Part shown: piece after piece, positions 6,800 to 60,041 of the stretch
Position numbering within the stretch: the stretch's first letter is position 1
Layout of the letters: every line of letters starts with the position of its first letter
Assembly: GCA_905178155.1 (NCBI GenBank)
Contig: CAJINV010000020.1
Location: forward strand, 248,001-312,000
Origin: Amoebophrya sp. A120
Lineage: Eukaryota; Protista; Dinoflagellata
Reading direction: 5' to 3'
Length of the DNA stretch: 64,000 nt
The notes under the pieces: generated by a model
Told to the model about the DNA's origin: nothing
The model's input: only the letters and a program-made list of their open reading frames with translations
Database searches by the model: none
Translations under genes and position numbers: made by a program

Positions 6800-9451
6800 T
6801 TACAACTCCGCGCTCTCTTTCTCCTCTTTTTCCTTCTTCGTTTCCGTCTTCGGGCCCTTCGGCTTCTTCTCCTAGGGTATGCAGCGAAAATAATACGACA
6901 CAGTCAGCACCAGATCGTGAGGAGGAGGAGGTCAAAGAAATACAGACGTGAAAATACCTCTACTGCACTTCTCCATGCGCATTTTTGTACTAAGTACCTG
7001 CAGCTGGTCTCGCTTGCGCGTAGTTGCACAACACAATCTTCAACTACGTATGGATCACGCGAATCAATATCATACAACTGCTTGTCGCGAACTGACAAAT
7101 TATCATGCGGAATTCATGCATGGAAAATACGCACGACCTAACACGTTGGCAGCAAAACACTGACAGGTCTCCGCACTCAGACGACTTTTTTCCTCTCTCT
7201 CCTGCGTGCCGAGGCTCTACAGTGACCGCATCATTTCTGGATAGTCTTCGGCTTCTTCGCTTTCTGCACCAGCTTGATCATCTTCAGGTCCGCCACGATT
7301 CCCTCCCGCATGCCCTTCTTCATGGTTTCCTGTGATTTGGCGGTCAACCGGGCCACCTCCGCGTCCACGGCCGCCAGGTCCTTGCTGCCCCACTTCTCCC
7401 ACGCCGACAGCTCGTCCTCGTCGCACCCTATCCACTGCAAACATGTCCTCGGTGTCTGGAATGTAGTTGTCATGCCAACATGTTGCGCACGGTCATGACC
7501 AGGCCAGCACGGCAAGACTAGGGAGCTACGCATGACAAGGTTATTTCTAACGGCTCCCTGATGCAGCCTTGTCCGCATGTCAAAAGAGTTCACATTTTCG
7601 CATCACAAACGGGGAGCGCTGATCGTGGTGCACAACATGCATCATACATTTTGGTTATTCTATGGTACCCCAATTGCATGTACGAAACTTCCAGACTTGT
7701 TCCAGACCCAGACATCATATCTTCCACGCATACAGCCCTCCTTGGCCGCGAAGTCGCACTTGACTACCCGTTTCTTTTTACCGTTGATCTTCAGAATCTC
7801 CATGCGGAAAACCAGCACGTCGCCGCCCTTGATCTTGGCCCCGCTTTATCCGTAGGAAAAACGTATCTACCCCGTTGTAGTCGAGATGTGAATAATGCTA
7901 GACAGATCCAGAAGCTTTGATGGGAGTAAGGCACGACAACTTTGGCTCCGTAGTGTTGTCGTTGGTGCAGCCGGAATCACAGATCGACTAATATCCCATC
8001 ATGATTAGTACAGCATGACGAACTATTCCATCCCGCCAAACACCACTAGACACTGACACAACTACAACTCCTCATGAGCAGGCTCCTGTACTGCATGAGA
8101 CACATTCTGTGGATGCAGATCTGCATGACAAATACGGGTAGACAAGTACGTTTTTACAGTTGCTACGCTGCCGCCGTCGCCGTAGCCCAATTCCGACGGG
8201 ATGTACATTTCCCACTTGTCTCCTTCCACTATCCCACAGAAAAAAGCAGGCAGGTTATATTTGAATTTGTAATGCAAAAATAAACACACAAAAAAATCTG
8301 TATTGCATATCCTAAGAAGCATGCTATGGGGCCGCCCATAACAGATTTTTCCGTGTAGTTATTTTTGCATTACAAATTATATGACCTGCCTGCTTTTTTC
8401 TGTGGGATATCCACCATGAGCTGCATAGCCTCGGTCCAGCCCTTAATCACCTGGTTCGGCGCGAAGGTGGTGGGCTCGCCGCGCTTGTTATGCATTGCAA
8501 AAGTACTATCGCACTCGTAGTGATCATCGCAATGATGCATGGCAAGTCTTTTGTCTTGAGGTGAAGCAGCATGACAAATTCCATTGGTCATCATGCTGAG
8601 GCAATTTGTAATGCAGTCACTACTAGTACGATAATTTTACCTTGCATACTTGTAGGAGGAGTCGAATTCCGCCCAGTCCGCCTCGTATCCTGAGTAAAAA
8701 CGTACCCACGCCAGAGTTGTAATGCAGATTTGCAAAGACAGGAAGACTTGTAATGCGCATCCCCATGAGAGCCATTTCCAATCGTGTTTTGAAATTTGTG
8801 ATGCTGTGAACAGGATGAGCAGATTAATCTGTGACGCGGCTGCACTTGCTAACCTGCACTACACTGCATAGTGCAACTTGTCATGCGTGACTCACAAAAC
8901 TCCTAGGTTTGTGTTGCAAAATCCTCATCCTGACTCTGGTGTGGGTACGTTTTTACTCAGGATACCTCGTCCTTGTCAATCATATCCGGGGTCAGCGCGG
9001 GCGTGGTGCCCGCGTAGTGGCACTCGCAGGGAGAGTATGCACTGCAAATTTACGTCTGGGTGTGGATTTGTACTAAAAATGCGCGTGGATCGATACGACA
9101 CGGATCTGCATTGCATGAAGAGGAGTTGTGAGCTTTTTCCTGCTCGTGCTGCAAGCCAATTATTTGTCATGTGATTTACGAATGAATCTGCGCTGGGTCC
9201 CCAGTACAAATAATTCATCGAATCTTTCCCGACCCAGACGATGACGAAATTGCAGTTGATATGGAGTCCTTAGTGGGCGCGTACTTCCCCTTGCCCTTTT
9301 TCAGCACCTTGTACTGCAGCCCGGACGGCAGCGTGACCACGCCTTCGCGCGCCTTGTTTTCCTCCAGGAACTTCAACCCTTCCTCGTTGGTTCCCGCCAA
9401 AACCGTAGTGGCCGCCGTGAGGGCGGACAGGTAGACGGAACGAGAGAACAT
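6800..9451 (-). CDS. Secreted/ER FKBP-type peptidyl-prolyl isomerase with C-terminal helical extension (~260 aa, 8 exons)
   Basis: Signal peptide; [82 protein letters not shown]; ends SAEL* (ER-retention-like); exon sum 783 nt. Confidence 0.9.
6874..7244 (-). mobile_element. Degenerate introner-type intron (FKBP intron 7)
   Basis: TAT...ATA ends, TSD lost; -1/+4 cut gives in-frame KPKKEKKPK; exact boundary uncertain. Confidence 0.5.
7425..7733 (-). mobile_element. Introner (GT-GT), FKBP intron 6
   Basis: TAT...ATA ends with internal TGTCTGG inverted blocks; TSD GGCTG/GGGTG; restores EGC-DEDE. Confidence 0.78.
7843..8166 (-). mobile_element. Introner (GT-GC), FKBP intron 5
   Basis: Degenerate TIR containing AAAAACGTA; TSD CAGCG/AAGCG; restores GGS-GAKIKGG. 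Confidence 0.75.
8226..8410 (-). mobile_element. Introner (AT-GG), FKBP intron 4
   Basis: Perfect 26-bp TIR TATCCCACAGAAAAAAGCAGGCAGGT; perfect 5-bp TSD GTGGA. Confidence 0.92.
8485..8649 (-). mobile_element. Introner (GT-AA), FKBP intron 3
   Basis: TATGCA ends; perfect TSD ACAAG; restores SSYK-RGEP. Confidence 0.82.
8682..8965 (-). mobile_element. Introner family A (GT-AG), FKBP intron 2
   Basis: ~32-bp TIR TATCCTGAGTAAAAACGTACCCAC..; perfect TSD CGAGG; homologous over its length to 26995-27273. Confidence 0.93.
9032..9262 (-). mobile_element. Introner (AT-CT), FKBP intron 1
   Basis: TIR TATCAACTGCAATTT / TATGCACTGCAAATT; flanks CTCCA/CTCTC; restores KDSPCECHY. Confidence 0.8.
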
Positions 9452-10176
9452 GATTTTGTTTTTTCGTTGGTTGGAGAAATGAGAAGCCAGGAGATAGTAT
9501 AGTAGCAATGATAACCGAGGCGCGAAAAATCGATCTGACTGGCCGTGAAGGTACTCTTATACTAACTACTCTTACTCGTAAGAGAGGACCGCAAAGTCCG
9601 AGCGTTCGTGGGTGAAGCGAGAAAAACAGTTTTCTTCTGCTCTGGTCGACCTGCAGGAGCTCGTGTGCGAGATAGTAAAAACTTGAACTTGATGATCATG
9701 ATTCCTCGGGCAGAGCGGAAAAAAGAGCTCGAACCAAAAAAAGGCAGCACCATCGGTTGATCGGTGGCATCGGCCAATGAGTTCCTTGTTTGATCATTGC
9801 AAGTAGTTGGAGTTCGTGCGCGCTGGACATTTTGTATGAATTGCATTATCAGGCAGAGAGATTATGTTGTTGGTCGGCATGAGGACAAGAGCATCGCGAT
9901 CATCATAGTTTTTTCCTTTGGACGAGAGAGAGATGGAATCTTTATCTTTTTTCGAAACATAACAGAATGAGTTCTAAACAACACCTCTGTCTTCGGGTAG
10001 ACTTCAGTCCCTTCTGCTACTTTTTATTTGTCCTTCGGGTTTCCTTGTCATCGACCAAAACAGAAGCGCTTTCGACATATCAATGTGGATTCGCGAACAA
10101 GACGGCGAAAAGAGAAACTGGATCGGATCGCTTCAGACTATTTTCGGAAGTGGAGTTCGCGGATGATAGGCACGGT

Positions 10177-11063
10177 TTAGCCCCACTCGACCCTCAGCAC
10201 TCCCTTCTCCTTCCATTGCTTGTCTTCCTCCTTCTCGGCGTCTGGCTTTGCGGGCACCGCGGTTGCAGTAAAGCCAGCCCGTTCAATGGCTTCTTTCACG
10301 GCTGGCACAATTTTCAACAGAGATTCCCAGTAGTTTGCGTCGGGCTTCTGCGACGGGATGCCGCAACTATTTTTCACCGCGTCTTCAAACTTAATGTTTA
10401 CGCCAACATTCCCCAGCTTCGTCGCCTTCTCGCAAAGCGGCAAGATGTTGTCGATGATTTTTGCTGCCATCTGGCGGTGCGTCGCAGCGGTCATCTCTTT
10501 CATGCGCCGCGCGGCGAAACCCGGGTTCGTCTGGCCCTCGAGTGGTGCGTCGCCGACGAAACTGAGAATGATTCGCTTGAGCGGGTCGTCTAAGCCGCCG
10601 TGCTCGGCGTAGCCCATATTCTTCGCGGCGCAAAGGTTCCACATCTTTCATATTTATTTCGTTGGGTCCAATTTTTCTCTGTCAAAACAAAGCAGCAGCA
10701 ATGTACTTGGTCCGTGCGACACCGTAGAGGTTTGTTTGTGGACACGACACGACAAAATCATAGATGAAAATCGACAACAATATCAAATACGTTGAGCCCG
10801 AGGTTCGCAAACTTTCGTCGCGCAACACGCGGCGCCCTCTCGTACTCGAGATCCAGCAGCTTGGCTTGCAAATCGTTCGCTGTCCGTCCGGGGACCTGCA
10901 GCGGAAACGGTGGAGGCGCAATTGCTGGCGGTGCTTGTTGGTTTACCGCTGGGACTTGCTCTCCTGGCGCCGGCTCGACCGGTGCCGCTGCAGCCGCCTG
11001 CGCTTGTGCCCCTGCCGCGGCCGCGGCGCCCTGTGCTCGGTTGCGATTGCGACGTGGTGGCAT
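10177..11063 (-). CDS. Unknown MPPRR-family protein, paralog 3 (~246 aa; intron 10645-10790)
   Basis: GT-AG intron at LN|MWNL; conserved blocks shared with other copies. Confidence 0.88.
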
Positions 11064-11566
11064 GATGATGATGACCAGCAGTACTTGTACTTTAATGGAT
11101 CATTCGACAACTACTTTTACTGCCTGTCTGAGCCTGAAGCCGAACAAAAAAAGCGCATTACTCCGAGAAAAGAAGTACTACATGTACATCTCCCGACTGC
11201 AGCAACAATTTTTTTTTACCGACAATACAAAAATGCCATGCTTTCTAGACTTGCTAGGATACTGTAATGAAACCTGTAACGATAAAGTCCTTGTATCGGA
11301 TCCTGTCTGAACACCGCGAGGCGGAAGTTATGCTTGTCGCTCCCTTGCTGGGCCTTTAATACGCTGCAATACGAAAATCGCCACTCCAGTAATAGCCGTA
11401 TACATTTGTCGTCAAACTCATCGCGGAAAACACGTCAGAAAATGCAACGAGAGACTGCAGTAGTACATCAGCTATCGGAATGAGCGACCAAATTGCGGCA
11501 TCTTTTCAAGGGGTTAACTAATGCTGGTTTTAGGTCTAGGTTGTAGCAGTCGCAGCTTCACAAACC

Positions 11567-16903: not shown

Positions 16904-19900
16904 TCACCATACTCGCATCGGGTGCACCTGTTGATAGAAATTTAGCAAAAAGATGAAGTTGCTTTTCAAGAGGCCGCATTGGGGGGCCAGTGGACGTCGC
17001 TGTACTTCTAAAGATAACCCACCCTCAGAGTCATAGCAAATTTTTCAACACGCCCGGCTCGCAAAAAAACTTCATTCAGCAATCCGCGCCGTACTTACAT
17101 GTGCTGACTTCCAAAAAAAACTCACAACACCTGTACCTTTCGCTTGCGAATTACTCACCGGCTGCGCGATAACCACCGGAACCCTTGGGTGCACAGCAGT
17201 GACGGTCGGCACGGCGGCTCCGGCCGCGAACGCCACCCCGCCGGTACCGTTCAAACAGCTCGGCGCGGCGCTGCCCTGCGCGGCGGCTTCCGTCCGCAAC
17301 TTCAAGGACAGAGCCGCCTGCGTTTGCTTGGTTTCGTGCGTCAAGTGCCGCGTTTGCTCCAGCAGGTGCTCCCGCTCGAGCTGCAGATTCGCGTTCCTCC
17401 GGACCAGACTTTCATTTTCCTGCACGGCTTGCACCAACTTCGTGCGCAGCGTGATTTCCCTCGCGGCAAGATGGCGGGCGGTGGGTTTTCGTTGGTCTAT
17501 GCAATACAAATTTGCTGTACATGTACAAAATGCATCACAAATTTCACCAACTTGGAGCATGCCACTTGTGATGCTGAATAGAATTAAAAGAAAGCCTTGT
17601 CATGCAGAAACCGCATTTGTACATGTACAGGAAATTTACTGTGGATATGGTCGGCGTCATTATTGTTCCTTCTCCTGGGCGGTTCATCACCTACTTCTGT
17701 GATGATTTCTGTGTTGTTGTGCACCACTACCGAGGAGCTGGAACTGCCGGACAAGCTGCACGCAGTCGTCCCGTCGTTCCTCGCAGCAGCCTCTACTTGG
17801 GCGGTCGTGTGTTCTTGCAGGAGTAGTTGTATCTCCTCCACCTCCGCAGGCGTCGTTTCCGCATTATAGGCCCGATTCAGGTGCGCCTTCAGTTCGGAAA
17901 TTTGCAGCACGTAGTCGCGGACAAATTTCTCGGCCTCCTGGTGCTTGTTCTGCTTGAGAAACTCGGTGCCGATCTTCGCACGTCGTTCGTACACCCGCTT
18001 TTCGTCTTCGAGCTCCTGAATTCGCCGCGCTAAACTGCTCAGCTGGTGCTCCTGGTAAAACAAAACTTCCGCCCAGAGCGCGTCCGCATGCTCGCTGGCC
18101 TCCACGGCTTCTAGGGAGGTTGTAGCGCTCGAATCTGAAAGTTCGTTGATGTGTGAGGATGATAATGCTTAACAATGTACTGTTTTGGGAAGTAAAGAGA
18201 TGTGCAACACCAACAAACAGGTGTATGTCTCTCTTTCCTTTAGAACTGGCTTTTATAAAGTATCTAGCATTTGCCCAGGAGCTGCACTAATCTCCACCTG
18301 CCACTCCCTTGCGCTCCTCGGCGAGGCGGATGCTGCGGTTGTTCAGTTGCGTATAGAGGTCGCCCGTATTTGCGTTCAGCGTACTGCGCAAAATCTCTAG
18401 CACGTCGTAGTGCGTCTGCAGGTACTGTCGCTCCTGTAACAGCGCCCAGCACGCCTGCCCATACGCGCCGCCCTGCCGTCCCTCGGCGAGCTCCGGATAC
18501 TTGGTCAAAAGCCTGAGGGAATTTCAATTTTGTATGAAGAAGCATGATCTTTTGTTTCCTCGGTTTTCTTCTTTCCTTTTTACGGTATATCTCGATGAGT
18601 TGAGCATGAGAAACACAAAGACGCATGCGAACCTACGCATCACAAAGAAATCTTAAGAGAACCTGTTCGGGTCTGAAACCAGGAACTCGTTGAAATCGTA
18701 ACCGAAGTTTTCCTCCCGCTCGTCGTCAAATTCCCGCTTTTATCCAAATGAAAAACCAGCCCTAGCACATCTCCTCAACGTCAACCGAGAGAAATGTCTT
18801 ATTTCTTTACGTGCGCACAAAAGGCTAAGGCATGTGCCTTGCACGTCGAAGAGGCAGAAACAAACGCCTGTTCGTCGCCTCGGCCCCCTATTCCACAACA
18901 ACATGCCTACATCCTCATCCGCAAGTCGTGGGAAGAAAAAAAATTTGCAAGACACTCTCCCGGTCGTGAAGAGAAGTACTAGATTGGCATTTTTCCCCTT
19001 CATAGCTCCTTCTGCGTGCCGACGTTTTCCGTGGGGCGGCGGAACTGCGCGACCTCGGATTTCAACGCGGTGATTTCTTCGTGCTTGGTATCAAAGAGAA
19101 AAAAGCCGCAACCCCATACAAAACAGAGAATTTCTGTTGCTGGATTTCTGTACACAAAGCAGCGTCGTGTTGCAGGAAGCGCTTGGAGGCTTTTTCTAAG
19201 CCTGGTTTGGTATGCAAAAGGCTAGCAGTTACGCATGGCAGACAGCTTTGCAGTAGGCAAAAGCGCATGACAGATTGGCTGTGGAATGCTCCCGATAGCT
19301 CCCAATTACACCACATGCAAGACAGACCTGCTTTGTGGTCACAAATCAGCATCACAAATTTCCAATCCGAGTATGGGAAGGGGAACTTTTTCCGTACGAT
19401 ACTTGGCTTCGGACTCCTCCTCCAACTGGGCTACCTTCATCTGCGCCTTGTTCTGCTCTGTGGTGGCGGTTTGGAGTTCCTGTTTAGTCGCCTCCAGGGC
19501 CTGCGTGAGTTCTTTCACGCGCGGGTGCATCTTGTCCAGCTCGCGCTTGAAGGCTTCGCCCTGCCGGGCGCCTTGCCGCACGTTCGCGAGCTCCGCGGTC
19601 AGCTCCGCCATGGCCTGTTTCATGTTCCCCAACTCGATCTCCAGACCCTGTGTGGAGGTGGGTACAGATTTGTATTTGTTCGATCGCAGCTTCAAAAGTA
19701 AGCAGAATTTCTTGAAAAGCAGGAGCCAGAACATGCATATCAACGCCTACTTCCGTAAAGGTGCAAAGACTCCGCAGGAGAGAAGTAAACTGTAACATGA
19801 AACAGTCCCCTTACGTCCGCCTGCTGGGCCTTTTTCCGCGTTCCCACCAGGTCTTGCTCCACGCTGTGCAGCTTCGCGCGGTAGTCCTGTTCCGCCGCTG

Positions 19901-23131: not shown

Positions 23132-24486
23132 CTATGAAACTTCAAAATACTCCCTATTTTCCAAACGCCGACCTTCTGCGACGAATTCCGCCACCTCGTC
23201 CCAGTTCCCAGGAACGTACTGCAAACAGACTGCGTTGACGCAGTGTCGCTGCGACCCCGGTCGGGTTTCGTTGAAAAACGCGTGCCCTAAATGCCCCTCG
23301 CACCGCCGACAAAGGATTTCGCACCGCTTTTTCGGAAAATCCAGCCGCAGCGCGACGTGGTACCCGTATTTTCCCCTGGAAAAGAGACACCGGTTGAAGG
23401 CCGGCCAGCCGTGGTGGTTACTGCGGAACCGGGAATCGGACCGGTAGAGCGGCAGGCCGCAGGCGGTACAGCGGAAGTAGCCTAAGACTACCATCGGGGG
23501 TGCGACGTGGGAGGTTGCGTCTGCTCCTGAGAATTGCGTAGGAGGAGGAGGAGCCTCACTGTATTTGTTCTTCCCCTGCGAAGAAGTAACGACGCCGGGA
23601 TTTGTATCGCCTGGTGTTACTGATTTAGCAATGCCAAAATACTGGTCCCAGTCTTTTTCCAAATCTGCCTTTTCCGTTCCTTCCTCCCGCATCACGTAAA
23701 ACGCTTCCGCGGAAAGCATTCTTTTCCACTCGTCGTTCGTCTTCTGCACAACAGAAAAAAGGCTATTCCTACTTTGTTTATGCATTTCCCCCGCACTCGT
23801 CCTCGGTACCATTTTGTCGCCCGCGAGCAACACGCTTGGGCTTTCCATCACTCTTTTCTGCAGCGTTTCCCACGTCACGAAGTTCTCGACCCAGTCGATT
23901 TGCTTCTTCTTCACGAATATCGAATGCGGATGTGTCTGGGTCTGAAAATAGAATGCAAGTCTGTCATGCTTGTCGCCCATGACTTTCAGCTCTGTGATGC
24001 ATGAGCAGGAAAAGCGCCACCTCTTGTCTGTCATGCAAAAACGCAGCTTGTCATGCAGAACACGCAACACACAGGAGCTCAAGACCTTGTCATGCTTGGC
24101 TGCGTATTGCAGTGCGCCTACCATTTGCAAATTAGCAGCACAAGTTTCCAGACCAAGACATATTCGCACTGGATAGCGAAGTTCTGAAAGTCCCCATCCG
24201 GGTCGTTGTTTAACGCCTGTTCGCTGCGCTCGATTTGCTCCTGCAGCTGCGTCATGTAATCCACACGCTTCCGCACCTTTTCCACCTCCGGCTTCGCCGT
24301 TTCCAGCGCGTCCCGCAGATTGTCGGCAATTCCCTGGGAGGACCTCCGCACGGCGCTGGCGCGCTTCAAAAGCTCGTCTACATTCAGGGCGGACGTACGG
24401 GGGGCAGTGGAGGGGCTTGAGGTGGACGTCGGTGAAGACGGCGAGAGTGGGGTGCTCAGTTGTACGGATGTTGACGCGAGGGGCAT
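23132..24486 (-). CDS. msrB: Methionine-R-sulfoxide reductase B with N-terminal coiled-coil extension; intron 23914-24176
   Basis: EWKRMLS.EAFYVMREEGTE, CTACGLPLY, GWPAF, EILCRRCEGHLGHAF, catalytic RHCVN; start at first ATG is inferred. Confidence 0.88.
23914..24176 (-). mobile_element. Introner family B (CT-CG) in msrB
   Basis: TIR TATC..TGC..ATRTGTCTKGGTCTG; TSD TTCGC/TTCGT; homologous to 44940-45190. Confidence 0.88.
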
Positions 24487-25039: not shown

Positions 25040-28000
25040 TCATATCACCTTCGAGCGCGCGGCCGCGTTTCCGGCCGCGGTGGCCGCTGGACCGCCCCCG
25101 ACGTGGTACATAGGCAGGGTCTGCTCCTTCGTCCCGCCGGTAAAAGCGCTTCGTGGCGGCGAATCAGCCAACGGATTGGGCATGCTGTAGTTGGCCAGCT
25201 CTAACCCCTTCGAGCCCATCTTTTCCTCCAGCCACGCCACCGCGCCGGGATCCGTCAGCTTCCGCACCCACTTTTGCGCTGCTCCCAACACCAAGGGGCT
25301 GGTTAAGAGCGAAAACGTGGCGGCGCCCAGGAGCAACAGGTGCACCTTGTTGCTGAACACCCCCCAGTATGAAATGCAAAAATATCGCGCTAGTAGTAAT
25401 TGCAATACAGCTTAGCTTAGCATTGAAAAATGGAATTTGTCATGCTGGTTTACCTTGGGAAGCAGATTTGTCATGCGTACTTATCCGCAGTTAGTACGAG
25501 TGCGTTACATTTGCAATTCATACCCAGGACTTGCCCTTCGCAAGAATTAAAAACGCGAACTCCCCCACGTGGGACAAGCAGAGGGAGATGTAGAGTGCGA
25601 TGGTCAATCTCTGTCCGCCGCAGGCGACTAAGTGCAGCATGGTGGTGAAGAACTTCAAAAACGTCAGGCCCGCCCACACGACGACGATAATCAGAAAGTT
25701 ATCGTACAGGAACAGCGGTCGCATCATCAGCCCAATGTAGCCGAAAAAGATCAGCATGAAGAACTCCTTCAACGGGCGGATCACGTCGGACGCCACGTCT
25801 TTGCAGGGTGGGGGCAGGGCGCAGCCGGCAAGAAACGCGCCGACCTCCTTAGAGAACGTCCCCAGCTGCTCCTATGCACTGCAAATATGTCTGGGTTTGG
25901 AAGACTGCAACTTGTGATGCTGCTTTTGCTTCCCACAAAAATCTGCATTGCGTGAGCAGCAAGAGAAGTTGAGTTTTTGCTTCGCGGAAGTGGCATTTCT
26001 CATGCGATATAGGCATCAGGAACCCCTCACGATGAAATGTGTGATGCTAGGGCAACATACACGACAGACACTATGGGTCATGCAAAATGTGCATCACAAA
26101 CAGTCGCACTCTTTTCGGCCCAGACAAATTTCCATTTGATAGCTCCCCTACTAACACGACCAGTAAACACCAGAGGACGAGCAGCAGCTGCTGTACTTCG
26201 TAGGATTTCCGGAAGTAGTGGTCAAAGATCTTTTTGTTGCGGGACACAAAGTATGAAGTGCAAATTATATGTCTGGGTCTTCTGGAGGAACTTGTGATGC
26301 TGAACGCGGGATAATTGACCCGTTTCCAAGTGCTACCAAGCATGACAAGCCTGTATCGGGTTTTCTCGTAGGTAGTACGCATCACAAACTGCGTCTCAAA
26401 AGGACAAAAAACCGCTGCTCTTGCTGGTCATGCAACACAGAAATTGCACGAATGCTAGACAAGCATCAGAAGCTCTCGGTCCTTTCCAGCGCCAGTCACA
26501 TATTTGCAGTGCATACAAAGCACGCGAGCAAACCCCCCGTACCGAAGAACAGAAACATCTGCACGATGGACATTTCAAACTGGACGAGCGAGAGGTTGAA
26601 GTGCTTGTTTTTCGGTACCTGCGCGTTGAAGAGAATGGGAAACACGGCGAGCGCGACGGCGAGAATCAGGTCCTGCGTCACGAGGATGGAAATCAACGCG
26701 TTGGACTGGATCGAGACCCCGTGGTCGGTGAGCGCGGACCGCTTCAATATCACCGGTCCCTTGCTGTCCGCGGGGCGGATTTTGGAGGACGCGCTCCCGC
26801 GCCGGCTGTAGCTGCGGCGGTTGGTCACGCCCCGGGGGCTGGGCGCGCCCTGGGCCGAGTCCACCTCGGACAGGACCCGGCTGGACTTGTTCCGGTCGCT
26901 CGCGGACCCGTCGTTCTTCTCGGACACGTGGCCATTTGCGGCGCCGGAGGAGGAGGACGACGCGCCGTGGCCGCTGCCCGTGCTAGAGGCGACTTATCCT
27001 GAGTAAAAACGTACCCACCCCAGAGTTGTCATGCAGATTTGCCATGACAGGAACATTTGTGACGCGCAACCCCATGACAGGCATTTTCAATCGTGTTTGG
27101 GAACTTGTAATGCTGTAAACAGGATCCGAAGGTCGATTTGTGATGCGGCTTTCCTTGCTAACTTGCACTACCTTACGGACTGAAACTTGTCATGCGTGAC
27201 TCACAAAACTCCTAGGCTTGTGTTGCAAAATCCCCATCCTGACTCTGCTGTGGGTACGTTTTTACTCAGGATACGACTAACGCGGTACTGGACACACTGA
27301 CAAACACGCCTACTAAAATTGCCTCCTGCAAATCCGTGCCAAGCACCGTCGCAAGGAAGGAAAAAACGGCGACCAGAGAAAACGTCACGAAGAGACCTGG
27401 GAATAAAGGTGTCGGGAGAAATTTCTACTACCTGCTTCCGATCATACCCATGGTACGACATAGCTGCGTTTTATTAGGTTTAGTCTAGTCTGTTGCGAGC
27501 GAGTTTCGAAAAAAAAAATACCTCCCGTCACCGCGGCTCGCCAGGCCTTGAGTATGCGGCGCAGGGAGAAGCTGAAGCCCAGTTCGAACATGAGGAACAC
27601 TAGCCCCAACTCCGCCACGCTCTCCACTTGCACGTGCTCTTGGATCATGTTCCAACCGCCCGGACCGCACACGGACCCGCCCAGCACGCAGCCGAGCGCC
27701 ATGTCCAGCCGGACGAAGCGGATTAGTAGGGCGAACACGCTGCAGAAGAACAGCAGCACGCACAGATCCCGCAGAAACCGCGAGTTATAACAGTGCACAA
27801 CTCCCCCTCCCCCTCCTTTGTCATGCAAAATGCCTAATTTACGCCTTGGCTCTTGGCCCTGTTTGCATGACAAGTTCTAGCAGCCCAAATAGCACTATAT
27901 TCCAGTGCAAATTTGTCATGCAAAACCAGCACCCTTGCTGATGCTTGTATTGCTGTTCATGCCATACAAATGAGGGGGAGGGGGAGTTGTGCACTTTTAT

Positions 28001-33395: not shown

Positions 33396-36300
33396 ATGAG
33401 TCGGCCCGCGCCTCGGAGTACCTTCCAGAAGCCGGAGAATGCGCTTCGTCGGGCGAAGGAACTCGATTCGGTGGGAAACCACGAAGATGCCCTGGCTTTG
33501 CTCGGTAGGATTATACTTTTTGAATCTATTCCAAGCAAGTCTTGCATTATTTTTTTCTTACTGTAAGTCCGCATTACAAATTTTATTTCTCATGCGGAGG
33601 AAATTTGTAATGCATTTGTACAGGTGACGTGATGGGCAATCGGAAGTTCAAGAACAGCAATACGTTGCACGTAATGGAGCAGATTGCCATCTTCGCCCTC
33701 GCGGGCCTGTCCGTGCCCCTGAAGGACCTGAAATCCGCCCGGGACATTCTGATCAACTACCGTTCCATGACGCAAACCACGGCGACGTCGTCCCTGGAAA
33801 AGGTGGTCCGCGAGTTTCGGTCCGCGGCGGAAAAACTCGTGACCGACAGCAAGGAGAAGGCGTCTTCCCTCGCCAAGGGTTTAGATGATGCCCCGGAGGA
33901 CCTGGAAACGCTGGACACCCCGGACAACGCGCTGCGCAAAGCGCTGAAGCCCAAGAACGTCCGGGAGCAGGAGAAGAAGGAGCGGGAGGTATCCTAAGTA
34001 AAAATGCCCCCACCCCAGAGTTGTCATGCAAATCTGCATGCCAAAAAAGTTTCTCATGCGGAGCCCCATGAGAACCATTGTCTAATCCTTTTTTGGAATT
34101 TGTGATGCTAGGATCAGCATGATATGTAGTGAGGTCACCGAACGGTTCTAACCAGGGAGTTTTTTTGACATATACCCTACAAAACGACCGGCACTTTTCA
34201 AGCGACCGGAAGCGTTTTTTAACATAAAAAATTCCAATTATCAAGCGGCCTTGGCTGACCTGGCACCGAATCGCCAGCGGATTCTATCGGTCGCCGCTTG
34301 AAAAAACGACGCAGAGGAGCCAGCAAAAGGAGCGCCATTCTGAGGCGCCCACCGCCTTAGTTTCTGGCGGTTTGGGGCGCCCAAAAGGGCGCCTGGAAAA
34401 AACGCGCCCAAAATCAGAACAGCGAAACAGCATGGCACGGCCGCGATTTCGGAGCATTTTTGGCGGCCGCGAAAGCGGCCGCGTTTTCGCCGGTTTCAGA
34501 GCCTCGGAAGCTTTGCAAAAAGCGCCGGCGCGAAAAATAAAAACGCAAAAAAGAAAAAGCGCGCCAGACGCGCAAAGCCAATCCGCATGTTATGGGCCCG
34601 ATTTTTCTTCGCTTTTTGGGCGCCCCCCGTGGCACCCGGATCGGCCCCATAGCATGGGGGCTGGCTTTCTGAAAGGAAAATCGGGAATTTGCCAAAATTT
34701 GCGACGTTTATCAAGCGGCCGCCATAGCGTGCGGCCTAACGTTACTCACGGCGGTATGGCGAGCCCAGAAAAAGCAAAGCCGCGGCCAAGGCAACGGCCG
34801 GCAAGAAAACGCCCACGACCTCACTACCTCCGCCCCGGCGGCTATATTTGGTATGCTACATCTGTGATGCTTCGGAGCTAGCTAAACAGGATTCCACTAC
34901 GAGGATAAACTTGTCATGCGAAACAACCAGAGGTGGCTGATTTGTCTAGCGGATTTCCCATCTTGACTCTGGTGTGGGGAGATTTTTACTCAGGATAGTC
35001 GGTGCTGGAAAACATCCGGTTCATGTGGGAAACCTACAAGCAGATTCTGGACGTTTTCAAAACCAACGGGAAGACGGAAGACTTGTATTTCTATTTATAC
35101 TTGAATTCATTGTTTTCATACTTATTACTTACACAGCAGGGGCTACAGTTTGTTTCTGGATTTGTGGTCTGTCTTCAGGTATGGTTTGTTTTTGTCATGC
35201 GAGTTGTATTGGATGAACCACGAAATCCACTAAACTCCTTCCAGGTACAACGAAACCGCCCAGCGCGCCCTGACCTTCTGCATGGAGAACCGCCGAACGA
35301 ACGAATTTAAAAAGTTGTGCGATCTCCTGCGAAACAATTACCAGAACCTGTTCAAGCGCGCATCCGCTACCGGAGTCTACCCACCGCATGCGGTAATATC
35401 TAAGGGGTTTTTTCCTCGAATAAAAGTTTGATGTGCTCATGCAGAATCCACTCATCAGTTTCTTTTTGTCATGCGAGACGTGTGGTCACGTTGAAAGAAA
35501 ATCTTCATTTTCACAGGTTAACCCGACGGACAAGGACACAATCGGGCGAACCATCGACACACGGTGCTTTCAGCTGAAGGTTTCCGGCGAATTAGCGCTC
35601 TGGAAGGAATGCTTCAACACCGCGGAGGATCTTTATTCCCTGATGACAAAGAGTACTATACCGATGTTGCTTGCAGTTTTGGCGCGAAGATGATGAAGTT
35701 TTTGTCATGTACAGCCCGCGAAACTAGACAATACTTAGAGCATATGAACAAGATCTACTTGTTAGCGCCGCAGTTAAGTGATTCGCTTTTCACCTATCCC
35801 GTACTAGCTGATTCATTTTCTGTTATGAAAAAACCTAAAACCCAGCAGCATACATTACTCCTGTATACAAAACAAAACAACAGAAAAACCGCGTGCCGCC
35901 ACGCTGGCGCAGTACTACGACTTTTTGTCGCAGATCTGTTTCAAGTCTGGGTCCTTTTTATTCCACGCCTACGCCCTGGTCCGCAACTACACCCTGCACA
36001 AGATCAACCAGAAGAGTTTCCAAGGCGAGGAAAAGACCCGCATGGCGAGTATCGCGGTCCTCGCAACCATGTGCGTTTCTGGGCATTTGCACGAGACTGG
36101 GGAATCCTTCGGGCCCGACCAGGCGGAGGTGGAGAAGCTGCGCCGCATGGCCCAGCTGTTCAACGTGGCCACCGTGCCCACGAAGAACACGTTGAAGACG
36201 GACTTGCAAATCCGGGAAATCCTCATCGACGCGCTTCCCGCGGTGCGCAAATTGTACCAGCTGATCGAGCTCGCGCCGCAGGTCGGCAAGGGTTTCTTGT

Positions 36301-40911: not shown

Positions 40912-43900
40912 ATGCCGGACCCGCCGCCTCGGAATGCGTTTTTTAATCCGGATAGGCAGCCCTCAGCGACCGGGGGCGCAACAAGCGGCGCAGCCGTAGC
41001 GCAGCAACGGATGAAGCAAACGACGTGGGTACTTTTCGCGTCTATCAAGAAAGAGGATAAGGACCAAAATCTGATTGCGCAATAGGGTGAAACTATTTCA
41101 GTAGATTCGGGCAGTAGAGCCACGCTCTGCACCGCATTTTTCACACGTGATGGCTACTACAGGCATGGGACGAGATGCTGTGATAGTAGGGACTAGAAGA
41201 ACTACTCGATTAAGAAAGCGCATTTATTAGACCGAGTCCTGGTGGAGGACAAGGAATTGTAGGATCCTGTCACATGATCTTCAAACCCTCCACATACTGT
41301 AACTAGGCGAGCCGGCTCCAGCAGACCGGGACCACTTCCAAGGGGCCGTGCAAGCCATCCCACGAGCACTCCGCCATGATTGGAACAACCGCTGCGGGGG
41401 GCAGTGGCTCCGCGACAGGAGGGAACCTGATCAACAGCAGCACTTCGGCTTCTTCCCTCGTCCTCCCCACACTTTTAACCAGCAGCGTGGTGAATCCCGC
41501 CACGGCTGCGAGCAGTAAGCCGGTCACCGAACGGAGTGCTGGGAGCGGCTGCAACACGAAGACAGAGGAGGAGGAGACCACCAGCCGCACCACTTCGGAG
41601 TACGGCGACGACACACCCCCGGTGATCCGCCGGCGGGGGAGGTACTTCTATTGCGCATTTCTGTCTATCATGCATAAAAATGCATCACATAAAATATTGT
41701 TGCAATTTCATAGGCAGCTTACCTACTCATGTTGGCGCAATACAAGAAAATTTCTCATGCAAAACCTGCATGTTAGTGACTTTTTCGCACTGCTTTCTCT
41801 CCACATACTACATCCAGGCGGTCCTCCACATCCTCTATGAAGCGGCGGGCGATGTTGCAGCGGCAAGTGGCGCCGCCGGTGCACATCAACCCGTCGACGG
41901 ACTCGGATTGCCAGTCGCCTTGGGATATCAAGCGCAAATATGTCCTCGGCGGCGTCTGGGAAGTTGTAATGCCAAAATGGAATGATAGGCGCAATTTTGG
42001 GACGCCATGTGTTGTTGTGTATTCCGCATGGCACATTGCGTTTTTGCATGCCAGGTAAGGGGCCCTCATTTATTTCGACGTCTTGCCCATGCGTCACATA
42101 GGTCTTGTGCTTGTCAGACATACATGACAGTCTTCCAGACCACCAGATCGATAGAGTTGCAATGCATACTGGAGTGCCCTCCGCCCCTGGTTCTCTCGGA
42201 CGACGAACGGTACAGCTGCAGCTCGGGGTCCCACCGCCGGCTGCACCGGAAATGCTCGGACGTGGGATCGGAAATCACCCTCGGTGACGCGGACGGCTTG
42301 TCGCAACTGTTCGACGGCGACAGCCCGCGCACCGTGAAGTCGCAGGAAAACAAAAGCTCCTTTCTGCACGTCGGTGGAACTACTTCTACTACGGGGAGTG
42401 CGCTGCTGAAAAACCCCGCGCCCGTCACGCCGGCAAGTAACAAATAAGCGTTTTGCTGTACTATGTTGAGAAAATGCAACATGGAAATCAAATTACTAGA
42501 CTAAAGCCAGTGCACCGCTCTTCGGCCGCTGTTCTACCGCACCGCCACAGCATGAAGATGACAGCACACACGCATTCTTCCATAATTTGCATAAAGAAAC
42601 AAATTTCATCCCCAGGTATCGGCAGCAACCACCTGAATGACTTATCCAAACCGCCGACGCCGCAAATTACATCGCCGAAACCCGGCAACCCGAATGCCAA
42701 GCCCTACCACCCGGTGATCCGCGACAAGGAACGGTTCGTGCAGCGGGTCAGTCAGCAGCAGAAAAAGACGATGAACAACAACGAGGAGCAGCTGCGGGAC
42801 ATGACCATTTTTTCCGGGAAAGAAATGTCCGATATTATGGACTACTTTCTCACCAACGTCGGCGACCGCAAGAACAAAAAATCCTCCTCCTCCAGCAGCA
42901 GCTCCCAGTGCGGACTGACGAAAGCGAAGCACCAAGAGTTCCACAGTGAGCTTGCGAAAAAACGGTTCGCACAGTACGACGACCACAGCAGCAGTACGAA
43001 AATGGGAGAAAGTGGTACTTTGCTGCTGAAGTGTACTGATCTTCCGAAATTTCAAACTCTTGATTTCTAGTAGAGGGGAGATACTTGTTGCGAGGTCAAG
43101 ACCTTTGGGACAGAATTTAATTATTTCAAAAGTCACTTTTATTTCACACGACGTACAACACGATTTACTTCAGCCTCGCACCTGTTTGGCCGGCGGAACA
43201 GCAACGCGGATTGCTTGCGCGGCAGATCCGACTCCACGGATTCAAAGGCCACCACCCGGTCGGCGCCAAATGCCTGTCGGTTGGTCAAAGTGGCTGCTGG
43301 GGAATTCAGTTCGGTATAGTATTAGTGACTGCAGCTGAAGAGAGTACATATCGCAGGGGCAATTTTGTAAGGATCACGTAGAGAACTACTTGGGTCGGCG
43401 ACGGCGTGTGCTGGGAACACGTTTTTTGATGAGGAAAATTATCATGGCAACAAGTGTAGTTTCCATTTCGAAATAATCAATTTTGCACAAAAATCTATCA
43501 AATCGCAGGAAGCAGCTGCCGATAGTCGGGGTGCCACGCCCTGCAGCCAGCGTTCGGCGCCGGCGCAGAAGCTCCGCAGTGTCAACCGGGCGCTGCTGGC
43601 GACGCACACCGCAAGTTTTGTTGGGGCGGACAAGGAGCAGGAGGCGGTGGAACCAATTGCATCTTCATCAACCGCTCCTGTTTTCGTATCGGGAACATCG
43701 ATCGAGCTGCAGCAGAACACAAGTTGTTCGTCGCCTTCGCTAGCAGATTCCTGCGCTGTAGCTGCAGTCAAAGCAGGAACTAGTGCCGATCTTGACGGAG
43801 CAGGGACCATGGGGAGTGGCTTCGTTTTGGCAGCTTCTACCGAGGAAGATGTTGCACCGCCTTCGGGAGAAGAACGGGCGGCATTCGGCACCGAGCCTGT

Positions 43901-46732
43901 GGATCTCGCAGCCGGTTTGGGGGAATCTACTGGAGGTGAACAACAAAAAAAATCGTCCGCTTGTTCCTCGATCAGTACCACAACAGCTTTGGTTTCATCC
44001 TCTGCCGCTGGTGAAAACGCAGCAGCGGCTGCAGTGTCGCAAACTGTACCAACTACTGGAGAAGATGAGCAATCCGTGCAGATGAAGAAGAGATCTGGGA
44101 ACAACCATGGTGCCACGATGGGTGGTAGTGCGAAAGCTACGAATGCCTGCGAACAGCAAGGAAGAAACTCAACAGTCAAAGAGACAGCAGAAGAACTCGT
44201 AACGGAAAACAATATTGGGTCTACTCCGATAGAAAAACAAGAACTGAGCGCTTCCAAAAATTTGCCGGACGAGCATGGGCAAAGTACAGCAGCGAAGCCC
44301 GACAGCATCGGTACGACCGAATCAAAAAAATCTTCTACCACGTCTCCGGAATTGACGAGAAAAGCAACAAACTTGGCCTCCGCGGTGTCGTCGACGAAGT
44401 TGGAGGATGCTTGTGCGGCAAATCTTGCGGCTGCAAACTGCTCCCCAACCACTTCCTCGACCACCTGCTCGCCGCAAACCACTTCCACCGGTCATAATTT
44501 CTCCACGTCCCCGACGCGCTCGGTGAAGCCCTCTTTTCTCGCGACACTGACGGGAAAGAACAAAATTAGCACCTCTGTTCAAGTGGAAATGAGAAGGGAG
44601 AAAGAGCCTGGTGGCTTCAGTACTACTGCAAGCGGGTACGGAGTCGTGGGAACTTCCCTGCTGAGCAGTAGCGGTAACAAGCAATCCATGGTGACCTCCA
44701 GTTGCACACAATTACCCTTCACGACCAGTTCCGGGAACATGGCCCGAGGTTGTACTACTGCTGGGTCCTCTACTTCCGCTGCAGGTCAACAGCAGGGTGC
44801 CGCTTCCATGTCCATGCAGGGCAACACCTTCACCTCCTGGATCGGGGACAGCAAGGGCAAGCAGAACAGCTGCAGCCCAACGTTGCCGCCCCCGTTGAGC
44901 AGCACGAAGCACTTTCCGGAGTTGTCCGCGTCTCAGTCATATGGATTGCAAATATGTCTGGGTCTGGAAACTTGTAGTGCTCAAAGTGAATGATAGACGC
45001 GCCACAATGCGCAGCTATGCATGATAAATTTTGTGGCTGCCTTGTCTTACGTATTCCGCATGGCAAACTGCCTTTTTGCATGACAGTTAAGAGGGCTCTT
45101 TCGTGCCTATGCAACACAGATTCTCGAGTCATGCCAGACAAGCATGACAGACTTGCATTCTTCCAGACCCAGACATTTTTGCAGTTGATAAATCAAGCTT
45201 AACCCTGTCGCCCCCGAACGGCAGAGACGGGCAGCTTTCCAGCCGCAGCTCGGGATCCGCAGAGGGGGAACTGCACCACGGGAAGACGAATCAGGGCGGG
45301 AAGCAAGCCAAGTCCTCGCGGGTGGGAGCGGCTACTTCAACATCTTCTGCGCAACAGAGCGAGAACAAGTTGTCTCCCGCCCCGGCGCAGCCCGGATCTT
45401 CATCTTCAAGTGGTTCTAGCACGACGGGCAGTCCGAACCAGAGCAGCAAAAGTGTTCAACAGGCGAATATTAAGCAAGGTGGTCCTTCTAGTACTGGTAC
45501 TACCTCCAACAGCATGATGAACACAGCCTCGAGCACTTGTTCCACCACCGTCTGCTCAAAAACAGCTACGGTAAATAAAGCCACATCTTCAGCTAGCACA
45601 TCGATTTCTTCTACAGAGAACACGACGAAGGTGGATCAACAACACCTTCCCACCTCCTCTCCCGCCGCACCAGAACAACTGGTGCGCACCTCCTGGAGCG
45701 CGAAAATGCAGCAGAATAAGTCAACCTCGTCCGCCGGCGCACCCGCAACTGCATCGGCAAATGGGAATAACAGCACTTCCTTCCAGCCGGCGCCGCGCAC
45801 TGCTGCAACCAGCAAGCAGCAGGGAGGTAGTAGTTCTACTTCTACTACAACTTCTTCGAGGGGACCAGTTACCTCTGCGAGCTGCAATCTGGTGCAGCAG
45901 CAGCAACAGCGGCAGAAGGATCATACTACCGCTAGTACAACCGTGAACAGTGCAAAAAGTAGCTGCAAAAATAACACCACTACGACATCATCAAAGAACT
46001 ACTCGCTCTCTACTTCATCGGGAGGTTCTACCACGGTGGAGCGGAAAGAAACCACCCTGGACGAGCCGGTGTGTCTACTCGGCCCGGAAGTGATGCCGCT
46101 GGAATCGGTTTCGGTGAGCACCTCGGGGGCCACGGGCTCCGGTCCGGCCCACGCGAAAAATGGAGTTCCGGGCGACGAATCTTTCGGCGCGTCGCCGCGC
46201 CGGCGTACGCGACCCGTTGACCGTTCCAGATTGCTACAGCTATGCATAATTGCAAAAGTTGATGTGTCATACTACATATAGATTGATGTCCATCGTAACT
46301 TTTTTGAAGAAGAGAAATAACCGAAGAACTTCTCATGCAGAGTTTTTTCAAGGTACGAAAATAAAACAGGCTTGTCATGCGACATTTTACAGTTAGTACA
46401 TACAACTTCGATTTTGCACAGGATAGCAGCAGAGCCGCGACAACATGCGAAACCAGCGGGCGAACCGGCAGCAAGGGTCAGCAGCTTCGACGGGGGTATA
46501 ATTTGTATTGTTCGTGAAATATTTTTCATCATACATTCGAATTTCAATTTCTTCATGTTCATATGCCTTTGCAGATTTGAAAATTCCTACGCGCGTTTTA
46601 TTCTTGCAGAATAGACAGAGTTCTTGAGGCCAGAAATAAACCATTGTGTATTCCGAGGTACCCGGCGGCACGACGGGGACGATTGGCAGCCTGAACGCGC
46701 AGAGCGCCAACCGCCAGCACCTGCGCGGCTGA
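40912..46732 (+). CDS. Very large Ser/Thr-rich low-complexity protein of unknown function (multi-exon)
   Basis: Plus-strand ORF chain from MPDPPPRNAFF to ..RQHLRG*; 3' joins checked in frame, internal joins approximate. Confidence 0.6.
44939..45194 (+). mobile_element. Introner family B (AT-TC)
   Basis: TIR TAT..TGCAAA.ATGTCTGGGTCTGGAA; TSD AGTCA/AATCA; joins the 43647 and 45322 ORFs in frame. Confidence 0.88.
46240..46429 (+). mobile_element. Introner (CT-AG)
   Basis: TAT..TGCAAAA TIR; TSD ACAGC/GCAGC; in-frame join LLQ-QSRD. Confidence 0.75.
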
Positions 46733-55393: not shown

Positions 55394-57098
55394 ATGGGTA
55401 ACTGCTTCTGCCCGAAATCAGAAGCTGCCGGGGTGGAGCTGCGGGAGGAACAGCCGGTCGATGGAAGGGAAAAAAGGCCTGCGCACACTTTCACCAACGG
55501 AGCGGTGTATACCGGAGAGTGGGTAAACGACTCGCGGGACGGCTACGGCACCCAGAATTGGCCAGACGGAGCGGTGTATGAAGGTATCTATAAGTGGTAG
55601 CAGTGCGATTTCGTATCATGTATAGGTGTAGGCATGAACTTCCCTGAAGACTGCTGGACTCTCAGCATTGTATGTGAGGCGCAATACAAAAAACTCAATT
55701 GCAAAGGTCAATGGAAGGACGATAAGGCACATGGCTTCGGAAAGTTTATCCACACGGATGGAGACATATACGAAGGGCAGTGGCACGCGGATAAGGCACA
55801 AGGGGACGGAACTTACTACCACGAAGACGGCTCAAAATACACCGGGCAGTGGTAACTACAACTTGCTGTTTCAGGTCTTTGTTATTGCGGTTGGTCATGC
55901 GAAAATACACATCACAACCACAAGAGAGTACCGGTGACGGTGTGTTTTGCAGGACCACATGACATCAGATGAAAATGCAACATCATTCAAAACTCATAAT
56001 ACCAGGCACGAAGATAAGCAGCACGGGTACGGCGTAGAGCAGTGGCCAGACGGTGCGAAGTATGAAGGGCAGTATGTCGCGGGAAAGAAGGAAGGCGAAG
56101 GACGATTCAGCTGGGACGATGGTATAGTAGAAGTGTACAGCACGACTTCTTTGCGATTGGTACGCCAAAAACGCATGACAGAGAAACTTGAAATTTCCAG
56201 TAGCAGCGCGAGCAGCGGTTCTTGCACAAGGCGGGTTACTACTAGTGTCATACGAAAACAAAGTACATGAAAACTCACAGGTTCATCCTACAAGGGCGAA
56301 TTCAAGCTGAACGAAATTCATATGAGAACGAGAAAGTGGAGATAATTACCGTGACGTCCTCCGGTTTACGCTGACATGCATAGAATACCGCGTTCAATAA
56401 AAGGCGTAAAAAGCCCTGTGTGCCGTTTGCGAAGCATGAAGGTAGTCTGTCGCTGTTGCAGCGATCTTGTTTATTATATTCGTTTTACCACAGTACAACG
56501 TCGCAATCGCGATCATTATCTCACTTCTCCCCTTGCACACCCCACGGCCTCGGCGTGTACGTGTGGGCGGACGGGCGACGCTTCGAGGGCCAGTGGCAGA
56601 AGTCGCGGATGCACGGTAGCGGCACGTTTTCCTGGAGCGACGGGCGAGTTTACAAGGGCGAGTACAACAACGACCAGAAGCACGGCTTCGGCGAGTTCAC
56701 CTGGCCAGACGGACGAAAATACGCGGGCCAGTGGTTCAACGCCAAGCAACACGGTTCGGGCACCTACACTATGCATTGCAAAAATATCTGGGTCTGGGAA
56801 GTTGAAACTTGTAATGCTAGCTTTACATTACTGAGAAATCAGTTTTGCATAAGCAACAAACGACGCAGCCGCTTTTGTCATGCAAAAACGCAGTTTCTCA
56901 TGCGGACTTCCTATAAAAAAGCAGTCTGTCTGGAATGTTGTCCTGCTGGGCTGCATTCGGAAGTGTTTCCATCATCCCCATTTTAGCATCACAAGTTTCC
57001 AGACCCAGACATATTTGCATTTGATATACACCAACGTCAAGGGCGAATCGCGGGAGGGCGTCTGGGAAGAGGGACGGAGGATCAAGTGGAACAATTAA
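55394..57098 (+). CDS. MORN-repeat protein with predicted N-terminal acylation (MGNCFC)
   Basis: Tandem YxGxWxxxxxHGxG repeats across ~6 exons; N-terminal MG plus Cys. Confidence 0.92.
56769..57030 (+). mobile_element. Introner family B (CT-CA), inverted relative to transcription compared with 44940 and 23918
   Basis: TIR TAT..TGCAAA.AT.TCTGGGTCTGG; perfect TSD TACAC; restores GTY-TNVKG. Confidence 0.9.

Positions 57099-57977: not shown

Positions 57978-60041
<2,064 letters not shown>

What the first reader, a model, noticed from the sequence alone, without database searches (positions are those of the whole stretch)
8682..57030. The same element works as an intron in both orientations relative to transcription
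Family A (TIR TATCCTGAGTAAAAACG): on the plus strand the CAGAGTTGTMATGCA end is on the left in all three copies, but hosts FKBP (8682) and the antiporter (26991) are minus-strand while eIF3a (33989) is plus-strand. Family B: the GGAAACTTGT.RTGCT end is 5' in the transcript at 44939 and in msrB but 3' in the MORN gene (56769). The frame is restored in each case. Inference: no strand-specific branch point or polypyrimidine tract is needed, and mobility is DNA-based rather than by reverse splicing.
Basis: partly seen in the sequence, partly recalled or inferred. Interest (0 to 1): 0.8.

Follow-up and report, generated by a model that had tools for sequence, protein, structure and literature searches.

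The report
Jumping introns that work either way
In a parasitic marine dinoflagellate, short jumping DNA elements sit inside genes facing either way and are still cut out of the messenger RNA without the usual GT-AG signals, likely because their mirror-image ends tell the splicing machinery where to cut; the elements are known, but this either-way behaviour narrows how they are likely spliced.

Summary
Observation confirmed. The window is Amoebophrya sp. A120 (two host proteins match A120 records 100%), and the elements are its published TIR introners (Farhat 2021). Families A and B both occur in both transcript orientations, also within one gene. In 196 copies with a called host strand, all 7 families of 4 or more copies show both orientations (A 35:23, B 37:20). 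Each copy has a 5-bp target-site duplication of free sequence. Removing element+5 nt restores the frame in 43 of 46 testable outside copies; only 12 of 181 could be GT..AG. Spliced contigs list the joint for eIF3a and 41926; depth arithmetic and annotated FKBP and msrB proteins cover opposite-facing copies. An available in-frame GT..AG is bypassed twice. DNA transposition is well supported. 'No strand-specific signal' holds for the element interior only; a signal may sit in the symmetric ends. Either-orientation introners are known (Aureococcus, Polarella), but the classes described take canonical-type splice sites from the duplication, the element end or adjacent bases. What my searches did not find in print is orientation- and site-free splicing set by the terminal repeat. 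New variant of a known kind.

The parts
8686..8964 (-). Family A introner in FKBP, FKBP-type orientation; perfect 5-bp duplication; intron 8682-8965
   Evidence: removed in annotated A120 protein P0003
7847..8165 (-). Diverged family A copy in the same FKBP gene, opposite orientation to 8686 (eIF3a-type)
   Evidence: (trimmed score 78 reverse vs 29 same, approximate bounds)
26995..27273 (-). Family A introner in the Na/H antiporter gene, FKBP-type orientation; no GT..AG register at element+5
   Evidence: skipped in contig X1 record 2 by depth and length arithmetic
33990..34997 (+). Diverged family A copy with about 730 bp extra interior, in eIF3a; spliced as 1013 nt (element+5), bypassing an in-frame GT..AG of 1010 nt
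   Evidence: listed joint 33987>35001 in X1 and X3
44940..45190 (+). Family B introner, reference orientation, in a large low-complexity gene of no known family
   Evidence: frame only, no read joint seen
23918..24175 (-). Family B introner in msrB, same transcript orientation as 44940; first intron base C
56770..57026 (+). Family B introner in the MORN gene, opposite transcript orientation to 44940
   Evidence: homology-based frame, no read joint seen
41926..42168 (+). Family B copy, same orientation as 44940; spliced as element+5 with no GT..AG register
   Evidence: listed joint 41922>42171
26252..26515 (-). Family B copy in the antiporter gene, MORN-type orientation
   Evidence: (reverse to 56770 on + strand, 98 vs 29)
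25873..26141 (-). Family B-related copy in the antiporter gene, opposite to its neighbour 26252
7429..7732 (-). Family B-related copy in FKBP; GT..AG (element+2) available but the annotated protein uses element+5
8489..8648 (-). Family C introner in FKBP
25368..25522 (-). Family C introner in the antiporter gene, opposite transcript orientation to 8489
   Evidence: (69 reverse vs 29 same)
8230..8409 (-). Further TIR introner in FKBP
9036..9261 (-). Further TIR introner in FKBP; imperfect duplication shows the fifth base comes from the right copy
27786..28001 (-). Further TIR introner in the antiporter gene
56321..56539 (+). Decayed TIR introner in the MORN gene (duplication 2 of 5)
58169..58420 (+). 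TIR introner in a papain-family protease gene
59417..59625 (+). TIR introner in the same protease gene; GT..AG alternative available
894..1218 (-). TIR introner, frame not tested
17498..17647 (-). TIR introner, frame not tested
19089..19401 (-). TIR introner, frame not tested

Best explanation
These are TIR elements of Amoebophrya A120 with 5-bp target duplications that lie in exons in both orientations and are removed from the RNA as element plus 5 bases, and they are likely non-autonomous DNA transposons whose mirror-image ends are likely read by a modified spliceosome in place of the usual GT-AG signals. Steps: (1) Shown: TIRs, 5-bp duplication of free sequence, both orientations, element+5 removal. 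(2) Inferred, about 0.9: a DDE transposase acting in trans inserts them; TA..TA ends resemble IS3EU/GingerRoot. (3) Shown within limits: the 5' cut lies 1 or 2 bases before the TIR if there is one fixed register; 1 base is favoured, which makes the intron start N-UAU and end AUA-NNNN. (4) Inferred, about 0.55: the TIR's UAU fills positions +2 to +4 of the ordinary A120 donor (GUA in 24 of 25 ordinary introns), with +1 relaxed in a cell where U1 was not found. The 3' cut is then set at a fixed distance from the other TIR, by its U-run/AUA sequence or its pairing with the 5' end, not by scanning for AG. Because both ends carry the same TIR, orientation does not matter.
For: Orientation: 7 of 7 families show both, with 0 inconsistent alignment edges. 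Among family A copies at least 85% identical, 6 vs 12. The host-strand caller was right at 22 of 22 window elements (19 with their gene left out of training, 3 in genes never trained on), and the strand of 5 of 5 Pfam hits agreed with its direction. Duplication. Its bases are unconstrained (fifth base G 65, A 51, C 43, T 37 of 196), and only 12 of 181 copies have any GT..AG register at element+5. Frame offset 0 in 11 of 11 and 22 of 24 copies of the two orientations. Splicing: listed joints of 1013 and 248 nt. The fully spliced antiporter contig predicts bin depth 15.69 against 15.7 seen, and any single retained intron gives at most 11.6. msrB predicts 9.37/7.51 against 9.38/7.52. Annotated FKBP and msrB proteins agree. 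Register: at or before -1 from msrB and 9036, at or after -2 from the eIF3a joint. Spliceosome link: ordinary donors are GTA 24 of 25, GTAT 12 of 25. Where the two fifth bases differ, the intronic one is G in 6 of 12 and the exonic one in 0 of 12 (sign test p=0.03, post hoc). Farhat found most spliceosome parts but no U1. Both strands fold a long terminal stem (z -8.0 and -9.4).
Against: No test touched the splicing machinery. No AG is needed, and an available in-frame AG is bypassed in 2 of 2 cases that could be checked, which is unlike a normal spliceosome. G-U pairs are not enriched over A-C in the stems (109 vs 92, p=0.26; 112 vs 102), and TIR positions 4-8 pair in only 45-74% of copies, so RNA pairing as such shows no sign of selection. 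The terminal TA may be a transposase constraint that matches the donor by chance. No drift to AG is seen at the 3' end (6 vs 7 of 43). Family B leans to one orientation (37:20, p=0.03; 35:16, p=0.01). Only 46 of 181 outside copies had flanks clear enough for the frame test, and 3 of them were out of frame. Runs X1 and X3 are RNA by guess, X9 and X11 gave 0 reads, and no DNA run was laid as control. No transposase was sought or found here; Farhat found none in A120.
Confidence: 0.55

Rival explanations
1. Same DNA transposons, but they are cut out by a separate, non-spliceosomal nuclease and ligase that recognises the paired TIR ends, as proposed for euglenid nonconventional introns.
For: Free first base and no AG. 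An available GT..AG is bypassed. A strong terminal stem forms on either strand. Euglena nonconventional introns follow a paired motif with fixed spacers and unknown machinery (abstract).
Against: The TIR's TA matches the ordinary donor's +2/+3, there is a weak lean to G at the first base, there is no G-U enrichment, and the stem is loose at positions 4-8.
Confidence: 0.3
2. Ordinary spliceosomal chemistry with a strand-specific branch point supplied by loose sequence in the interior of either strand; orientation independence then only reflects a very permissive branch signal.
For: Ordinary A120 introns show no clear pyrimidine tract in their last 20 bases, only few G, so the signals are weak anyway. 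113 of 196 elements carry the internal motif on both strands.
Against: It does not explain the fixed element+5 length or the bypassed AG. Family A has the motif on one strand only and works both ways.
Confidence: 0.1
3. The non-canonical joints are reverse-transcriptase template switches across hairpins flanked by 5-bp repeats, or excision at DNA level, not RNA splicing.
For: Hairpin plus short direct repeat is the classic setting for this artefact (own knowledge). No DNA run or direct RNA data were laid here.
Against: Unspliced forms end the ORF early in 18 of 19 tested elements, eIF3a among them. The main full-length eIF3a contig skips the element together with nine GT..AG introns in two samples. 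Copies with 3-of-5 repeats and loose stems are skipped exactly, and FKBP homologues have no indels at the six junctions.
Confidence: 0.03
4. The elements spread as RNA by reverse splicing.
For: None found.
Against: Both orientations in 7 of 7 families and exact 5-bp duplications.
Confidence: 0.02

Closest known systems
Amoebophrya A120 introner elements (Farhat et al. 2021, PMC7789003)
   Same: Same organism; TIR consensus TAT, seven free bases, AAA; 3-5 nt direct repeats, with 5-bp examples in Fig. S19; non-canonical ends; hairpin model. These are members.
   Different: In the text and supplement legends I searched, 'orientation' refers only to genes and 'strand' does not occur. The paper doubts transposase-based mobility and gives no single removal rule or AG-bypass case. 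Its figures were not seen.
Either-orientation introners of Aureococcus and Polarella glacialis (Roy et al. preprint 10.1101/2020.10.14.339549, citing Huff 2016)
   Same: TIR/TSD DNA transposons that make introns in either orientation, often with a bias to one.
   Different: In the passages seen, they take GT/GC/GA and AG sites from a constrained duplication (GHNN, GHN6, AGGH, NAGGH), the element end or adjacent bases. Here the duplication is free and most copies have no canonical register.
Euglenid nonconventional introns (PMC12501133; review PMC11282704)
   Same: Non-canonical ends, paired motifs near both ends with fixed spacers, TSD-like repeats.
   Different: Different motif (CAG/CTG) and spacing, and a purine is required after the intron; unrelated lineage; orientation not addressed in what I saw.
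Fritillaria non-canonical introners
   Same: MITE-derived introns with TIRs and duplications, removed by a U2 spliceosome.
   Different: There the splice sites are the TIR ends with preferred dinucleotides (AG-AC, AG-AT) and U1 is kept; here the cut is likely offset into the duplication and U1 was not detected.
IS3EU/GingerRoot DNA transposons (PMC10045372)
   Same: TA..TA termini. An A120 introner family with TIRs and an integrase-like ORF is reported.
   Different: Their duplication is usually 6 bp, here it is 5 bp; no transposase is linked to these families.

Membership tests
Amoebophrya A120 introner elements | Lies in the A120 genome | tested here: met
   P0003 and P0216, named Amoebophrya sp. 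A120, match window exons 100%
Amoebophrya A120 introner elements | Inverted repeat TAT + 7 bases + AAA at intron ends | tested here: met
   A at positions 11-13 in 191-195 of 196 at each end; TAT and part of the A-richness were search conditions
Amoebophrya A120 introner elements | 3-5 nt direct repeat at the boundaries | tested here: met
   5 bp: 65 of 81 exact; 21 of 21 window elements at least 3 of 5
Amoebophrya A120 introner elements | Repeated family, removed from transcripts, mostly non-canonical ends | tested here: met
MITE / non-autonomous TIR DNA transposon | Short, TIRs, fixed-length duplication, many dispersed copies, either orientation | tested here: met
   119-417 bp within a 110-450 bp search range
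MITE / non-autonomous TIR DNA transposon | Cognate autonomous element with the same TIRs | not tested
   No whole genome is held; the literature conflicts
Aureococcus/Polarella-type bidirectional introner | Makes introns in either orientation | tested here: met
Aureococcus/Polarella-type bidirectional introner | Canonical-type splice dinucleotides carried by the element or taken from the duplication | tested here: not met
   12 of 181 with any GT..AG register; first base free
IS3EU/GingerRoot | TA..TA termini | tested here: met
IS3EU/GingerRoot | 6-bp duplication (usual) | tested here: not met
   0 of 81 with 6 bp
IS3EU/GingerRoot | IS3-like DDE transposase | not tested
   No autonomous copy in hand
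U2 spliceosomal intron | GT..AG ends | tested here: not met
U2 spliceosomal intron | Lariat with branch adenosine, snRNP dependence | not testable with these tools
   Needs lariat sequencing or knock-down

The most novel reading that the evidence does not exclude
A120 runs a second splicing code in which a transposon's terminal repeat alone fixes both cut sites by distance (1 base before one end, 4 bases after the other). Any insertion, at any 5-base site and in either direction, would then be removed without a scar even when a GT..AG is on offer, by a rewired U1-less spliceosome or a separate machine. That would make exons a free target for the transposon and explain tens of thousands of non-canonical introns with one rule.
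Probability: 0.4. Interest if true: 0.8.

Novelty: new variant of a known kind. Interest (0 to 1): 0.5.

Why it matters
How Amoebophrya removes its non-canonical introns (over 60% of all its introns) is an open question raised by Farhat et al.. Orientation independence with a free target site confines the needed information to the symmetric 14-18 terminal bases and their distance from the cuts. That gives a small, testable design: TIR swaps, spacer changes and lariat mapping. It also argues for DNA transposition, where that paper was doubtful. Gene finders and introner screens that demand same-orientation or GT-AG ends (one published screen required 5' to align with 5') would miss about half of such copies.

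Tried and rejected
Internal motif TTGTNATGC as branch point: rejected. It follows the element strand, shows no clear sense bias in 25 ordinary introns (4:2 for the exact motif, 7:3, 7:8 and 17:16 for looser forms) and is absent from 15 kb of exons. G-U versus A-C asymmetry as a sign of RNA-level pairing: no signal. Drift to AG at the 3' end: none. G at the first intron base in the window (13 of 22) versus outside loci (57 of 181, p=0.016): post hoc and differently sampled, so used only as a hint. Viral-contig scan: 16 single or tandem motif hits, none with the longer family A end; not used. Raw-read runs X9 and X11 laid 0 reads, so no test; no RNA holder is listed as such on record. The MORN protein search returned no A120 record. 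Pfam found families in only 5 of 120 flanking ORFs, so strand validation outside the window is thin. The asparagine-synthetase-like gene model could not be built. Earlier scan notes: nothing. Huff 2016 and Roy 2023 (journal version) are not held. Rows dropped: of 131 family A hits, 25 at edges, 17 incomplete and 8 duplicates were dropped, and 22 of the 81 left had no host call; 107 of 303 elements had no host call.
Full report
What the window is. No whole genome is held. The first FKBP exon returned a 100% match named Amoebophrya sp. A120 (P0003), and the msrB exon did too (P0216). The TIR form, TAT plus seven bases plus AAA, is the A120 consensus of Farhat et al. 2021 (PMC7789003, section 11). 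The elements are therefore the published A120 introner elements.

Observation. The family A TIR occurs 8 times against 0.15 by chance. With the symmetric ends trimmed, 8686, 26995 and 33990 align on the same strand; 44940 aligns to the reverse complement of 23918 and of 56770. Hosts and strands are confirmed by Pfam and the A120 records. So family A and family B each face both ways relative to transcription. I curated 22 TIR elements; 21 of the first 21 have a 5-bp direct repeat matching at 3 or more bases, 11 of them exact.

Are they spliced in both orientations? Laying four runs on 23400-43300 gave contigs in X1 and X3 (RNA by guess, but they skip ordinary GT..AG introns) and 0 reads in X9 and X11. 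Of 25 joints, 15 were shown. They include eIF3a (1013 nt, element 1008+5) and 41926 (248 nt, element 243+5). For the joints not shown, contig lengths and depths decide. The fully spliced antiporter contig predicts 15.69 in the bin where 15.7 is seen, while retaining any one intron gives 6.4-11.6. Spliced msrB predicts 9.37 and 7.51 against 9.38 and 7.52. This covers 26995 and 26252, the opposite-facing copies, by inference and not by a listed joint. The annotated FKBP lacks all six elements, each as element+5, and aligns without gaps at those junctions to four homologues. My msrB splice equals the annotated protein at 363 of 363 residues. The MORN and 44940 copies rest on frame and homology only.

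Wider count. The 80 listed come from one assembly (prefix JACKZZ01), with copies up to 98% identical to the window's. A coding model called the host strand correctly at 22 of 22 window elements, 19 with their gene left out and 3 in genes never trained on, and 5 of 5 Pfam hits agreed in direction. Of 81 complete family A copies, 65 have an exact 5-bp duplication and none has 4, 6 or 7 bp. Of 59 with a host call, 24 face one way and 35 the other (p=0.19), and 6 vs 12 among copies at least 85% identical. A de novo search found 303 elements (0 in shuffled sequence), 196 with a host call. All 7 families of at least 4 copies show both orientations: 35:23, 37:20, 15:15, 5:5, 5:5, 2:2, 3:1. Family B leans one way (p=0.01-0.03). 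Where both flanks were clearly coding (46 of 181), removing element+5 kept the frame in 43: 11 of 11 in one orientation and 22 of 24 in the other, 10 of 11 unassigned. The sample is biased to loci that hold family A and to one assembly.

What the splice rule looks like. The duplication is free: the first intron base is G 65, A 51, C 43, T 37 of 196, and only 12 of 181 copies have any GT..AG register at element+5. Where G flanks both ends, an in-frame GT..AG intron of element+2 is possible, yet eIF3a and FKBP 7429 (from annotation) use element+5. Imperfect duplications bound the 5' cut to -2 or -1 before the TIR, if one register holds. [quoted passage not shown] In 12 copies whose fifth bases differ, the intronic one is G in 6 and the exonic one in none (post hoc). 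The conserved parts of the ends are TAT (a search condition) and the A-run at 11-13, which pairs in 97-98% of copies, while positions 4-8 pair in 45-74%. G-U is not favoured over A-C. The internal motif is tied to the element strand and is no branch point; that it binds a transposase is a guess.

Mechanism. Most likely (0.55) a U1-less spliceosome reads the TIR as donor and sets the acceptor by distance from the other TIR. A separate nuclease-ligase (0.3) is the main rival. A permissive interior branch point, template switching and reverse splicing are unlikely.

Comparison. Introns made in either orientation are described for Aureococcus and several Polarella classes; in the passages seen they use canonical-type sites from a constrained duplication, the element end or adjacent bases. 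Euglena nonconventional introns use a paired motif with fixed spacers. TA..TA ends recall IS3EU/GingerRoot, whose duplication is usually 6 bp, and an A120 TIR introner with an integrase-like ORF is reported. I found no statement of orientation independence or AG bypass for Amoebophrya in searches or in term look-ups. Papers seen: PMC7789003 abstract, passages, sections 10-12 and 16, and supplement legends (no figures); PMC12130899 passages and section 6 (datasets not seen; they may bear on novelty); the Roy preprint, PMC9860276, PMC11282704, PMC10045372, PMC12621601, PMC13326754 and bioRxiv 2025.08.15.670264 as passages; PMC12501133 abstract and outline. Huff 2016, Roy 2023 and Henriet 2019 were not seen and are cited only through others.

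Verdict. Real and well supported, in a known family of elements. The either-orientation property is known in kind. The site-free, AG-bypassing removal rule is the new part and makes an open question testable. Interest 0.5.

Noticed in passing
window 7429-9261: All six introns within the first 236 codons of FKBP are TIR introners, of at least three families and including two family A copies facing opposite ways.
   Followed up: yes
window about 34120-34860: About 730 bp extra inside the eIF3a family A copy, with a short inverted repeat near its ends; one end is 97% like L098, and part is 75% like sequence beside the assembly gap at 62901-62978. Probably a nested mobile element.
   Followed up: partly
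elements throughout; e.g. window 8686-8964: The 9-base internal motif recurs five times at the same spacing in both intact family A copies, all on one element strand, and is absent from 15 kb of exons; possibly a protein-binding site on DNA.
   Followed up: partly
25 ordinary introns in the modelled genes: Ordinary GT..AG introns start GTA in 24 of 25 and have G-poor, A/C/T-rich 3' ends without a clear pyrimidine tract.
   Followed up: partly
window 3400-14300: Five diverged tandem copies of a small minus-strand gene (repeat families D5, D6, D9, D10); function not examined.
   Followed up: no
window 61189-62400 and 62790-63846: Exact 616-bp-spaced duplication across a single N, and a 212-bp exact repeat on both sides of the N gap; probably assembly artefacts.
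   Followed up: no
window 30040-32700: Gene-free stretch with an AT-rich block then a GC-rich block at the switch from minus-strand to plus-strand genes; no contigs of X1 or X3 lie on it.
   Followed up: no
window 23132-24613: A 493-codon stop-free frame runs through the msrB element on the host strand, so a retained element would still read through from another frame; the annotated protein uses the spliced form.
   Followed up: partly
window 49417-51485: The splicing factor SNW1/SKIP gene carries only three ordinary GT..AG introns and no TIR element.
   Followed up: no
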